Part shown: in pieces, positions 43,923 to 45,010 of the stretch
Numbering within the stretch: the stretch's first letter is position 1
Layout: every line of letters begins with the position of its first letter
DNA from: a virus
Lineage: Duplodnaviria > Heunggongvirae > Uroviricota > Caudoviricetes
Virus record (IMG/VR): IMGVR_UViG_2529292911_000007
Direction: 5' to 3' (one strand)
DNA length: 49,111 nucleotides
Translations under genes and position numbers: made by a program
Notes under the pieces: model-generated
What the model saw: the letters and a program-made list of their open reading frames with translations, nothing else
Told to the model about the DNA's origin: nothing
The model's database searches: none

Positions 43923-45010
43923 CTATTCGCTATAAGTTAATGTTGGTTTTGAAAGTCTTTTGGATATTGTTTTTCCGATATTAATGAATGGAGTTTCAAT
44001 ATATTTATAAATAAAGAATGATAAGAACAAGCTAAGAGCAATAATGAATGAAAACTTAGAGAACCCAGGTTTTTCATAAAGCGGAATGAAATCCTTAAAA
44101 TTAATTAAAAATAGCATTACTATCGCATGGGATAAATACAGAGAGTAAGAGATATCACCTAGCTTACTGAGTATTTTATTTTCCCTTAATCCGAAGTTAA
44201 CTTCATAAAGTAAAACTCCCGTAATTATGGAGGCTGCCCACAATCCGAAGTTTAAAGGGCCATGACCAAATCTGAATTGATAAAAATATGAGCAAACACC
44301 AAATGAAACCAAAAGGAATGATATCGCCTTTGCGTTTTTTATATATTTAAATTTTCTGTGTATTATATACAGAAACATCCCATAAACGAATTCTAACAGC
44401 ATGGGTGATGACATTAAGTTTAGAAAGCCAATATGCCAATGACCTGTATCACCAATCGTAAACTTACTTGATAGAGAAAGGCTGTTGGAAAATTTCAACT
44501 GTATGAGAAGTAGCGGGACTATCAATGCAATAACTGATATTAATAATCTGTTTTTATGACTCAGCGATATTGCAAGCATAAAAATGAAATAAAAATAGAC
44601 TTCAAAGGTTAATGTCCATGCTGGATAAAGCACGTTGTATCCGAAGAATGGCGCTTCTGAATAATAGTCCAGGTGAAGCAGAAACAATGAACGCAATAAT
44701 TCACTTTCGGTGAAGACTGGGTTCAATAAAAAGAATAAGATTGTGCAAATGAAAAATACAGGGTAAATCCTGAAAAAACGCCTGGTCATAAAGTTAATAG
44801 GGGAATTTGTTTCTTTTTTTGACTCGATAACATTATTATAAATCCACTTATAATAAAAAACAGATCAACCCCAAAACCACCACTAATAAACAATAAATCA
44901 CCTAGATCTTTTTGTGCGTAAACTTCATTTAGGTATTGTTTATTGTGATATGCAACAACGAGTAATGCTGCTACACCTCGCAAATAGTGAATTGATTTTA
45001 CCTTCTTCAT
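43923..45010 (-). pseudogene. Acyltransferase-3 family membrane protein (O-antigen acetyltransferase-like), split by a frameshift at a poly-A tract
   Basis: 74-aa N-terminal ORF (MKKVKSIHYLRGVAALLVVAYH...FFIISGFIIM) and 288-aa C-terminal ORF (RRFFRIYPVFF..., multi-TM) overlap by 4 nt in different frames at an A7 run near 44800-44815; strongly AT-rich. Confidence 0.6.

What the first reader, a model, noticed from the sequence alone, without database searches (positions are those of the whole stretch)
43923..45010. AT-rich acyltransferase-3 (O-antigen acetyltransferase-like) cargo gene split at a homopolymeric tract
A multi-TM acyltransferase-3 family gene sits in the region after the tail-fibre genes. 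Such genes in temperate phages commonly acetylate O-antigen (serotype conversion, receptor masking). The reading frame is broken at an A7 run, so it is a pseudogene, an assembly artefact, or a phase-variable contingency locus.
Basis: partly seen in the sequence, partly recalled or inferred. Interest (0 to 1): 0.55.

Follow-up and report, generated by a model that had tools for sequence, protein, structure and literature searches.

The report
Frameshifted prophage O-acetyltransferase gene copy
This is a one-base-short, broken copy of a known but untested membrane acetyltransferase gene carried by an E. coli prophage; the break sits in a slippage-prone run of A's, and it is an ordinary inactivating mutation or a sequencing error, not a demonstrated genetic switch.

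Summary
On the minus strand, a 74-aa ORF (44786-45010) and a 288-aa ORF (43923-44789) match consecutive parts of Pfam Acyl_transf_3. They are split at an A7 run (plus-strand T7, 44814-44820) in a 32-34% GC gene beside the tail-fibre gene of an icd-integrated lambdoid prophage.

The intact allele is RefSeq WP_000756238.1 (362 aa) and has A8. A8 occurs in 35 of 40 complete E. coli genomes that carry the gene, and in well over 1,300 contigs against about 25 for A7.

A7 occurs on at least three haplotypes. A9 alleles exist, and so do T5 and T7 alleles of a second run 38 nt downstream. So this is a recurrent slippage hotspot. However, off-alleles are rare, a run this long is expected from the gene's composition, and the Klebsiella orthologue lacks it. 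A contingency locus is therefore not supported.

An artefact remains possible. All five A7 complete genomes are nanopore-only assemblies. The window also has four private homopolymer contractions, two of which break other genes.

In the A7 allele, A_AAA_AAG lies in phase, so -1 slippage would recreate the exact wild-type protein. This is untested. Interest is low.

The parts
44786..45010 (-). N-terminal fragment ORF (74 aa): TMH1-TMH2 of the AT3 domain, carrying R11-X10-H22 and FFIISG(51-56), followed by about 7 out-of-frame residues and a TGA stop
   Evidence: Pfam PF01757 positions 2-61, E 2.6e-12; motifs read against the definitions in PMC7448272
43923..44789 (-). C-terminal fragment ORF (288 aa). 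It starts at the native Met75 and carries R78-F-F-R81 (the RXXR motif) and TMH3-TMH10
   Evidence: PF01757 positions 73-325, E 2.5e-17; identical to the C-terminus of intact WP_000756238.1
44814..44820 (-). Minus-strand A7 run, the site of the frame break. The intact allele has A8, encoding Q64-K-K-E in the variable loop between TMH2 and TMH3
44813..44819 (-). A_AAA_AAG heptamer in the zero-frame phase (CAA AAA AAG). A -1 slip here reads ...QKKETNSPINFMTRRFF..., which is the exact wild-type sequence
   Evidence: Direct reading against P0016. Shiftiness of A_AAA_AAG in E. coli from PMC5009743. No stimulatory structure found
44773..44778 (-). Second run (minus-strand T6) inside the R-F-F-R codons, 38 nt downstream of the A run. 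T5 and T7 alleles exist elsewhere
   Evidence: (P0005/P0013 103 aa = T7; P0002 95 aa = T5)
44786..44789 (-). ATGA overlap: the stop of the N-terminal fragment overlaps the ATG of the C-terminal fragment, so termination-reinitiation is possible
   Evidence: direct reading
45033..45039 (-). Variable run (T7 here, T8 in many relatives) 23-29 nt upstream of the start codon, in the 5' leader
43496..43618 (+). Tail-fibre-assembly gene remnant (C-terminal piece only) between the tail-fibre gene and the acyltransferase. Coordinates are transferred from the CV839-06 annotation
   Evidence: L004 43584..43706, offset 88
45274..45723 (+). Recombinase (invertase-like) pseudogene remnant on the other side of the acyltransferase. 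Coordinates are approximate, transferred from the annotation

Best explanation
The locus is a one-base-contracted (A8 to A7) allele of a known but experimentally uncharacterised 362-aa AT3-only membrane O-acetyltransferase (RefSeq WP_000756238.1). The gene is cargo in the right arm of an icd-integrated lambdoid prophage. In its intact form the enzyme would presumably move an acetyl group from cytoplasmic acetyl-CoA across the inner membrane onto a surface glycan; this is inferred from the family, and the substrate is unknown. The contraction lies in the codons for the variable TMH2-TMH3 loop. It separates the R/K-X10-H and FFXISG motifs (74-aa fragment) from the RXXR motif and TMH3-10 (288-aa fragment), so the copy is most likely a loss-of-function pseudogene. 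It arose by replication slippage at a run that is a recurrent mutational hotspot. It is not a programmed switch. Shown here: anatomy, family membership, the intact A8 allele, allele frequencies and recurrence. Inferred: loss of function, slippage as the cause, and the biochemical role.
For: The fragments match Pfam AT3 positions 2-61 and 73-325. The intact A8 allele matches positions 2-325 of 326 (E 2.6e-34) and PHROG 3333 'O-acetyltransferase' end to end (E 2e-71). A8 is present in 35 of 40 carrier genomes among 5,426 complete E. coli genomes. Intact 362-aa proteins are seen on at least 1000, 213 and 147 contigs. The A7 74-aa fragments are seen on 10, 8, 4 and 3 contigs. The same 74+288-aa split occurs in independent NCBI, ENA and Logan assemblies. 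L012 has the same state as the window at seven of the eight tabulated runs, differing only at 45096. A7 occurs on at least three gene haplotypes. A9, T7, T5, a T4 frameshift at 44551 and IS-insertion alleles also exist. This is the picture of a dispensable cargo gene decaying by many routes, with the runs as hotspots. PGAP already flags such copies as pseudogenes.
Against: The window's assembly looks error-prone at homopolymers. It has eight one-base differences from CV839-06, all contractions in the window. Four are private, and two of those break otherwise intact genes. All five A7 complete genomes are nanopore-only assemblies and span two haplotypes. Loss of function is not proven: A_AAA_AAG lies in phase and the ORFs overlap in ATGA, so some full-length or split product could be made.
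Confidence: 0.55

Rival explanations
1. Assembly artefact: the strain really has A8 and an intact gene, and the consensus under-called the homopolymer by one base, as happens with nanopore R9.4.1, 454 or Ion Torrent data.
For: Against CV839-06, whose prophage is 100% identical over 23.8 kb, the 49-kb window has 6 SNPs and 8 one-base indels. Every indel is a contraction in the window inside an A, T or G run. Affected runs are 1 of about 54 six-mers, 3 of 13 seven-mers and 4 of 6 runs of eight or more. Private contractions split the DUF4411 gene (T7 to T6 at 5998; 0 of 33 genomes share it) and mcrC (A6 to A5 at 49090; 0 of 305 genomes share it). A6 at 45096 is unique among 16 sequences. All five A7 complete genomes come from strains that appear to belong to one nanopore-only (R9.4.1, medaka) project. 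They lie on two different gene haplotypes, while 35 of 35 genomes from other projects have A8.
Against: The same A7 split occurs in independent assemblies, including Logan run assemblies and NCBI drafts. Some have accessions in the style of NCBI's TPA pathogen-surveillance assemblies, which I take from my own knowledge to be short-read based. Three independent samples (L007, L009, L010) agree at all eight tracked runs. The window's A7/T7/G7/T8 pattern equals that of L012. Two other 8-mers in the window (15041, 46893) are called the same as in relatives. The window's private SNPs do not fall in Dam or Dcm motifs.
Confidence: 0.3
2. Phase-variable contingency locus: the A run, and perhaps the T run, is a selected hypermutable repeat that reversibly switches surface-glycan O-acetylation on and off. 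This could serve to escape phages or antibodies.
For: Run-length alleles A7, A8 and A9, and T5, T6 and T7, all exist. A7 occurs on at least three haplotypes, which implies recurrent slippage. Precedent exists for phage-borne switchable O-acetylation in E. coli: NeuO on prophage CUS-3.
Against: Off-length alleles make up only about 2-3% of contigs. An A or T run of 8 or more arises in 62% of synonymous-codon shuffles and 28% of mononucleotide shuffles of the gene. The 94%-identical Klebsiella variicola orthologue encodes QNKGIN there, which cannot contain a long A run. The gene is also lost irreversibly by IS insertions and other frameshifts. From general knowledge, an A8 run in mismatch-repair-proficient E. 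coli mutates orders of magnitude more slowly than classical contingency repeats.
Confidence: 0.08
3. Recoding: the A7 copy is expressed through -1 ribosomal frameshifting at A_AAA_AAG, or through transcriptional slippage on the A run, as a selected way of setting enzyme level.
For: The heptamer is in the correct phase and the -1 product is exactly the wild-type sequence. A_AAA_AAG is reported as far more shift-prone in E. coli than several other heptamers tested (PMC5009743). C-AAA-AAA alone gave 25-60% frameshifting in an over-expression vector (PMC1851650).
Against: There is no Shine-Dalgarno-like element upstream. There is no downstream structure: MFE -11.1 kcal/mol, z = +1.0, with 172 of 200 shuffles folding as well. 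The split configuration is the rare allele and homologues have uninterrupted ORFs. The phase of the heptamer is an automatic result of deleting one A from CAA AAA AAA G. Incidental low-level leak is plausible (roughly 0.4), but selection for it is not indicated.
Confidence: 0.05

Closest known systems
RefSeq WP_000756238.1 'acyltransferase family protein' of E. coli (intact allele of this same gene)
   Same: Identical DNA apart from the run length. It sits in the same position between the tail-fibre-assembly remnant and the recombinase remnant, upstream of the McrB-like ATPase and McrC.
   Different: It has A8 instead of A7, giving an uninterrupted 362-aa ORF. No paper naming this protein was found in the library, so its substrate is unknown.
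Oac of Shigella phage Sf6 and OacB/C/D (AT3-only O-antigen O-acetyltransferases, serotype conversion)
   Same: AT3-only architecture of about 330-360 aa with about 10 TMH. It shares the FFXISG and RXXR motifs and is carried by temperate phages (motifs and Oac described in PMC7448272; this protein).
   Different: No detectable close relationship. The tblastn search of 50,697 phage records listed no Shigella phage, and the best hit was 35.7% identity to a Pseudomonas phage. The substrate here is untested. This copy is frameshifted.
OafA / OafB (GtrC family II) of Salmonella, including BTP1 prophage GtrC
   Same: AT3 domain with R/K-X10-H, FFXISG and RXXR motifs. O-antigen acetylation, often prophage-linked (PMC7448272; PMC4413052 listed).
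   Different: Those proteins are AT3-SGNH fusions of about 600 aa with an 11th TMH. This protein has the AT3 domain only. From general knowledge, gtr operons phase-vary epigenetically through Dam and OxyR, not by repeat slippage.
NeuO of E. coli K1 prophage CUS-3 (phase-variable capsule O-acetyltransferase)
   Same: An E. coli prophage cargo O-acetyltransferase whose reading frame is toggled by slipped-strand mispairing within the 5' coding region (PMC8653822).
   Different: From general knowledge, NeuO is a soluble hexapeptide-repeat enzyme and not an AT3 protein. Its switch is a 14-39-copy AAGACTC heptanucleotide array with high-frequency switching. The feature here is a single 7-8 nt homopolymer.
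Homopolymer or repeat inactivation of surface-glycan O-acetyltransferases in Neisseria meningitidis (oatC) and Haemophilus influenzae (oafA)
   Same: O-acetyltransferase genes switched off by slippage in intragenic repeats. This is recalled from general knowledge and was not checked here.
   Different: Different organisms, which have genome-wide repeat-based contingency systems. E. coli is not known to use short poly-A runs this way.
dnaX-type A_AAA_AAG -1 frameshift site
   Same: The identical heptamer, in the correct phase, in E. coli (PMC5009743).
   Different: The dnaX site has an upstream Shine-Dalgarno-like element and a downstream stem-loop as stimulators and is conserved. Here no stimulators were found, and the site exists only in the rare mutant allele.

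Membership tests
Acyltransferase-3 (AT3, Pfam PF01757) | Profile match above Pfam's gathering score across the domain | tested here: met
   The fragments score 46.9 and 63.4 bits against a cut-off of 31, at profile positions 2-61 and 73-325. The reconstructed or intact ORF scores 119.2 bits at positions 2-325 of 326.
Acyltransferase-3 (AT3, Pfam PF01757) | R/K-X10-H motif in TMH1 | tested here: met
   R11 and H22 are invariant in a 23-sequence alignment. The motif definition comes from PMC7448272.
Acyltransferase-3 (AT3, Pfam PF01757) | FFXISG motif in TMH2 | tested here: met
   F51-F52-I-I54-S55-G56 is invariant.
Acyltransferase-3 (AT3, Pfam PF01757) | RXXR motif after TMH2 | tested here: met
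   R78-F-F-R81 is invariant. In this window it lies in the second ORF, separated from the other motifs by the frameshift.
Acyltransferase-3 (AT3, Pfam PF01757) | About 10 transmembrane helices with no fused SGNH domain (AT3-only architecture) | tested here: inconclusive
   A crude hydropathy scan gives about 9-10 hydrophobic segments in 362 aa. The only Pfam domain is PF01757. No dedicated topology predictor or structure model was run, and no solved homologue was found.
Acyltransferase-3 (AT3, Pfam PF01757) | Uninterrupted ORF encoding the whole domain in this window | tested here: not met
   The A7 run shifts the frame and a stop follows after 74 codons.
Phage-encoded O-antigen O-acetyltransferase (Oac-type serotype converter) | Encoded within a temperate phage or prophage | tested here: met
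   The gene lies between the tail-fibre gene and the right end of an icd-integrated lambdoid prophage with integrase, excisionase, replication, lysis, head and tail genes.
Phage-encoded O-antigen O-acetyltransferase (Oac-type serotype converter) | Sequence relationship to a characterised O-antigen acetylase | tested here: inconclusive
   PHROG 3333 'O-acetyltransferase' matches at E 2e-71 and PHROG 6705 'O-antigen acetylase' at E 1.1e-14. No deposited phage has a homologue above 36% identity and no Shigella phage appears among the hits.
Phage-encoded O-antigen O-acetyltransferase (Oac-type serotype converter) | Acetylates O-antigen and changes serotype or phage adsorption | not testable with these tools
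   This needs LPS chemistry or serology on isogenic strains.
Simple-sequence-repeat contingency (phase-variable) locus | Intragenic repeat whose length change toggles the reading frame | tested here: met
   A7 is out of frame, A8 in frame and A9 out of frame. The T6 run behaves the same way.
Simple-sequence-repeat contingency (phase-variable) locus | Recurrent, independent length changes among close relatives | tested here: met
   A7 occurs on at least three gene haplotypes. A9, T5 and T7 alleles are present. Part of this signal may be sequencing error.
Simple-sequence-repeat contingency (phase-variable) locus | Repeat longer or more conserved than composition predicts (evidence of selection for mutability) | tested here: not met
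   62% of synonymous shuffles contain an A or T run of 8 or more. The K. variicola orthologue lacks the run. More distant homologues vary in this loop.
Simple-sequence-repeat contingency (phase-variable) locus | High switching rate, seen as mixed populations within a culture | not testable with these tools
   No read data are available. Off-length alleles are only about 2-3% of contigs.
Programmed -1 ribosomal frameshift (dnaX/IS type) | X_XXY_YYZ slippery heptamer in the zero-frame phase, with an open -1 frame | tested here: met
   CAA AAA AAG. The -1 frame is open through to the native C-terminus.
Programmed -1 ribosomal frameshift (dnaX/IS type) | Stimulatory elements (upstream SD-like sequence, downstream hairpin or pseudoknot) | tested here: not met
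   The fold z-score is +1.0 with no stable local hairpin. No GGAGG- or AGGGAG-like element lies upstream.
Programmed -1 ribosomal frameshift (dnaX/IS type) | Two-frame organisation conserved among homologues | tested here: not met
   The great majority of alleles and all distant homologues have single ORFs.

The most novel reading that the evidence does not exclude
The A8 run and the T6 run inside the RFFR codons might act as a low-frequency, reversible three-state control of prophage-encoded surface-glycan O-acetylation in E. coli. A8 would give full expression. A7 would give dim expression, because the deletion automatically creates an in-phase dnaX-type A_AAA_AAG site whose -1 slip regenerates the exact wild-type enzyme, and because the ATGA overlap could allow reinitiation of the C-terminal fragment. 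A9, T5 or T7 would switch the gene off. The recurrent A7 allele would then be a 'savior indel' that lowers rather than abolishes acetylation.
Probability: 0.1. Interest if true: 0.45.

Novelty: new member of a known kind. Interest (0 to 1): 0.2.

Why it matters
If the A7 call is real, this strain probably lacks, or makes very little of, a prophage-encoded surface-glycan acetyltransferase that its closest relative CV839-06 has intact. That could alter serology or phage susceptibility in porcine ETEC-like E. coli. More practically, the case shows how homopolymer errors in long-read-only assemblies can pass for pseudogenes or phase variation. All five A7 calls among 5,426 complete genomes come from nanopore-only assemblies, so run-length claims need read-level support. 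Nothing here opens a new biological question. The enzyme's substrate is unknown but falls within a well-studied class.

Tried and rejected
- **Solved structures.** A profile of 23 homologues found no PDB relative at E of 0.01 or better, so no structure-based assignment was attempted.
- **Public scans for run-length variants.** The pattern GTTATCGAGTC-N6-10-GAAACAAATTCCCC gave 2 metagenome and 3 IMG/VR hits, all spanning 33 nt, which equals A8. This is too few to estimate frequencies.
- **Phage collection.** There is no close homologue in 50,697 deposited phages, so the gene is known only from prophages.
- **Nanopore methylation-motif errors.** I tested whether the window's private SNPs fall in Dam or Dcm motifs. 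They do not. One ETEC1731-private SNP does lie in CCTGG. The window's sequencing technology therefore stays undetermined.
- **Frameshift stimulators.** No RNA structure was found around the run.
- **Promoters and terminators.** The scan was no better than shuffles: 9 promoter-like sites found against 7.4 expected, and 0 terminators.
- **Literature.** A search for the RefSeq accession found nothing.
- **A7+T7 double change.** I considered whether the double change in ETEC1731 restores the frame. It does not, because a TGA lies between the two runs, and PGAP flags an 'internal stop'.
- **NCBIfam.** Only a sub-threshold hit to SucT was returned.

Full report
**What is in the sequence**

On the minus strand there are two overlapping ORFs.
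- One runs 44786..45010 and encodes 74 aa.
- The other runs 43923..44789 and encodes 288 aa.
- They overlap in the tetranucleotide ATGA.

Pfam Acyl_transf_3 (PF01757) matches the first ORF at profile positions 2-61 (E 2.6e-12). It matches the second at positions 73-325 of 326 (E 2.5e-17). A single domain therefore continues from one reading frame into the -1 frame.

The switch point is a minus-strand A7 run, which reads as T7 on the plus strand at 44814-44820. The gene is 32-34% GC, against 44-51% in the flanks.

**Genomic context**

The window is a lambdoid prophage integrated next to icd. From left to right it carries integrase, excisionase, recombination, immunity, replication, Q, lysis, head and tail genes, then J, lom and a 1093-aa tail fibre. 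I read this from the annotation of two near-identical records, CV839-06 and ETEC1731.

After the tail-fibre gene come five features in order:
- a C-terminal remnant of a tail-fibre-assembly gene;
- the acyltransferase, on the opposite strand;
- a recombinase (invertase-like) remnant;
- a McrB-like AAA ATPase;
- mcrC.

None of 50,697 deposited phage genomes has a close homologue; the best is 35.7% identity in a Pseudomonas phage. The gene is rare in E. coli: only 40 of 5,426 complete genomes carry this part of it.

**The intact allele**

Strain AR_0369, CV839-06, W284 and many others encode an uninterrupted 362-aa protein, RefSeq WP_000756238.1. Within the gene, the AR_0369 and CV839-06 copies differ from the window only in having A8 instead of A7; W284 also carries one synonymous SNP.

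The intact protein:
- matches PF01757 end to end (E 2.6e-34);
- matches PHROG 3333 'O-acetyltransferase' end to end (E 2e-71).

An alignment with 22 homologues of 40-94% identity shows the AT3 motifs as invariant: R11-X10-H22, F51-F-x-I-S-G56 and R78-x-x-R81. The motif definitions come from PMC7448272. A crude hydropathy scan is compatible with about ten helices and no extra domain, which is the AT3-only architecture.

The run encodes Q64-K-K-E in the variable loop between TMH2 and TMH3. The frameshift therefore leaves the TMH1 histidine and the FFXISG motif on the 74-aa fragment. The essential RXXR motif and the other eight helices end up on the 288-aa fragment.

**How common the A7 allele is, and whether it recurs**

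Among complete genomes, 35 of the 40 carriers have A8 and 5 have A7.

In the 15-billion-protein collection the contig counts are:

| Allele | Product | Contigs |
|---|---|---|
| Intact A8 (three protein variants) | 362 aa | at least 1000; 213; 147 |
| A7 (four protein variants) | 74 aa + 288 aa | 10; 8; 4; 3 |
| A9 | 72 aa | 3 |
| A8 with T7 at the second run | 103 aa | 5 + 1 |
| T5 at the second run | 95 aa | 1 |
| T5 to T4 frameshift at 44551 | 200 aa | 19 |
| Probable IS disruption | 81 aa | 8 |

The second run is a T6 that lies 38 nt downstream, inside the R-F-F-R codons. Complete genomes also show IS1, IS3 and IS5 insertions and truncations of the gene.

At the DNA level, A7 sits on at least three gene haplotypes, and two of them also occur with A8. 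That implies recurrent slippage, though recombination could contribute. The exact 74+288-aa split is present in ten independent NCBI, ENA and Logan contigs. Three samples (L007, L009, L010) agree with each other at all eight homopolymers I tracked. I conclude that A7 is a real allele in nature, and that both runs are mutational hotspots in a gene frequently lost by several routes.

**Is it a contingency locus?**

The evidence does not support a contingency locus.
- Off-length alleles are only about 2-3% of contigs.
- An A or T run of 8 or more appears in 62% of synonymous-codon shuffles of the gene and in 28% of mononucleotide shuffles. The run is what an AT-rich, Lys/Phe-rich gene yields by chance.
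- The 94%-identical Klebsiella variicola orthologue encodes QNKGIN at this position, which cannot contain a long A run.
- More distant homologues vary freely in this loop.
- Neighbouring non-coding or pseudogene runs vary more widely among isolates than the coding run does: G6-G9 at 45418, T7-T9 at 45470, A6-A8 at 45096 and T7-T8 at 45033. This fits purifying selection keeping the gene in frame in most carriers.

A switching rate could not be measured here.

**Is the break in this window an artefact?**

An artefact is a serious possibility.

Against CV839-06, whose prophage is 100% identical over 23.8 kb, the window has 6 SNPs and 8 one-base indels. All eight are contractions in the window, and all lie inside homopolymers. 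The affected fraction rises with run length.

Four contractions are private to the window:
- T7 to T6 at 5998. This splits a DUF4411 gene that is intact in all 33 complete genomes that have it.
- A7 to A6 at 7300.
- A7 to A6 at 45096, unique among 16 sequences.
- A6 to A5 at 49090 in mcrC. None of 305 complete genomes shares it.

In addition, all five A7 complete genomes are ETEC17xx strains from Belgian pigs. They match the collection described in PMC10151945, which was sequenced on nanopore R9.4.1 only and polished with medaka. I could not check the accession table, so that link is an inference. These five lie on two different gene haplotypes, which is hard to explain except by a systematic under-call. 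ETEC1731 also carries a private T7 at the second run and a private SNP in a Dcm motif.

Against the artefact reading:
- The window matches L012, an independent run assembly, at seven of the eight tabulated runs (including A7/T7/G7/T8), differing only at 45096. L014 shares A7 and T7.
- Two other 8-mers in the window agree with relatives.

My estimate is about 0.55-0.6 that the A7 is genuine in this strain and about 0.3 that it is an error.

**Possible leakiness**

Deleting one A from CAA AAA AAA G automatically produces CAA AAA AAG. This is the dnaX-type heptamer A_AAA_AAG in the correct phase. A -1 slip there reads QKKETNSPINFMTRRFF..., which is exactly the wild-type protein.

A_AAA_AAG is reported as much more shift-prone in E. 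coli than several other heptamers tested (PMC5009743). A bare C-AAA-AAA gave 25-60% frameshifting in an over-expression vector (PMC1851650).

I found no stimulatory structure (z = +1.0) and no upstream SD-like element. The split form is the rare allele. This would therefore be incidental leak, not programmed recoding.

The ATGA overlap could also allow reinitiation at the native Met75. Whether two fragments could assemble into an active enzyme is pure speculation.

**Comparison with known systems and verdict**

By profile and motifs, the gene is a member of the AT3 family with the AT3-only architecture of Oac-type O-antigen acetylases. It is not demonstrably an orthologue of any characterised enzyme, and its substrate is unknown.

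Inactivation of surface-glycan O-acetyltransferases by repeat slippage is well known. NeuO on E. coli prophage CUS-3 is one example. Meningococcal and Haemophilus examples are recalled from general knowledge.

PGAP already annotates the intact gene, and flags frameshifted copies as pseudogenes.

The finding is therefore an ordinary case: a frameshifted or mis-assembled copy of an annotated cargo gene at a slippage-prone run. The main lesson is methodological, and interest is low.

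Noticed in passing
window 5911-6150 and 5639-5974 (break at 5998-6004): A DUF4411-family gene next to an ImmA/IrrE peptidase gene is split by a T7-to-T6 contraction. All 33 complete E. coli genomes that carry this stretch have the extra base and an intact gene. This is likely a homopolymer error in the window's assembly.
   Followed up: yes
window 49090-49095 (mcrC C-terminus); also 7300-7306 and 45096-45101: Three further private one-base contractions. A6 to A5 in mcrC is shared by 0 of 305 genomes. A7 to A6 at 7300 is intergenic. A7 to A6 at 45096 is unique among 16 sequences. Together with 5998, this gives four private contractions and no private expansions in 49 kb.
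   Followed up: yes
window 45418-45424, 45470-45477, 45033-45039: Runs in the recombinase pseudogene and the acyltransferase leader are strongly polymorphic among isolates: G6 to G9, T7 to T9 and T7/T8. They vary more than the coding A run does. How much of this is biology and how much is sequencing noise is unresolved.
   Followed up: partly
window 16169-18795, with an inner element at 16761-18070: The prophage lysozyme gene rrrD is interrupted by an IS3-family element (32-nt imperfect inverted ends). In this window only, a second IS3-family element of about 1.3 kb (25-nt inverted ends) is nested inside the first. CV839-06 and ETEC1731 lack the inner copy. The prophage is probably lysis-defective.
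   Followed up: partly
window 46047-48029 and about 48074-49111: A 660-aa McrB-like AAA ATPase (Pfam AAA_5, McrB_lid, DUF8425) and McrC lie just downstream of the acyltransferase. They form a restriction-type defence module in the prophage right arm and are conserved next to the acyltransferase in most carriers.
   Followed up: no
L004 (CV839-06) positions equivalent to window 32501 and 38205: The closest relative, CV839-06, has internal stops in the tape-measure and J genes caused by single SNPs, whereas the window's copies are open. Each genome thus carries its own set of prophage lesions.
   Followed up: partly
L005 (ETEC1731) equivalent of window 23974: The ETEC1731-private C>T difference lies inside a CCTGG (Dcm) motif. 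This is a typical nanopore R9.4.1 consensus error and supports caution with that project's homopolymer calls.
   Followed up: partly
window about 14700-19200 (transferred from the L004 annotation): The prophage also carries an ompC-like porin gene and iss/bor (serum-survival lipoprotein) as cargo near the lysis region. It therefore encodes several surface-modifying or surface-exposed morons besides the acyltransferase.
   Followed up: no
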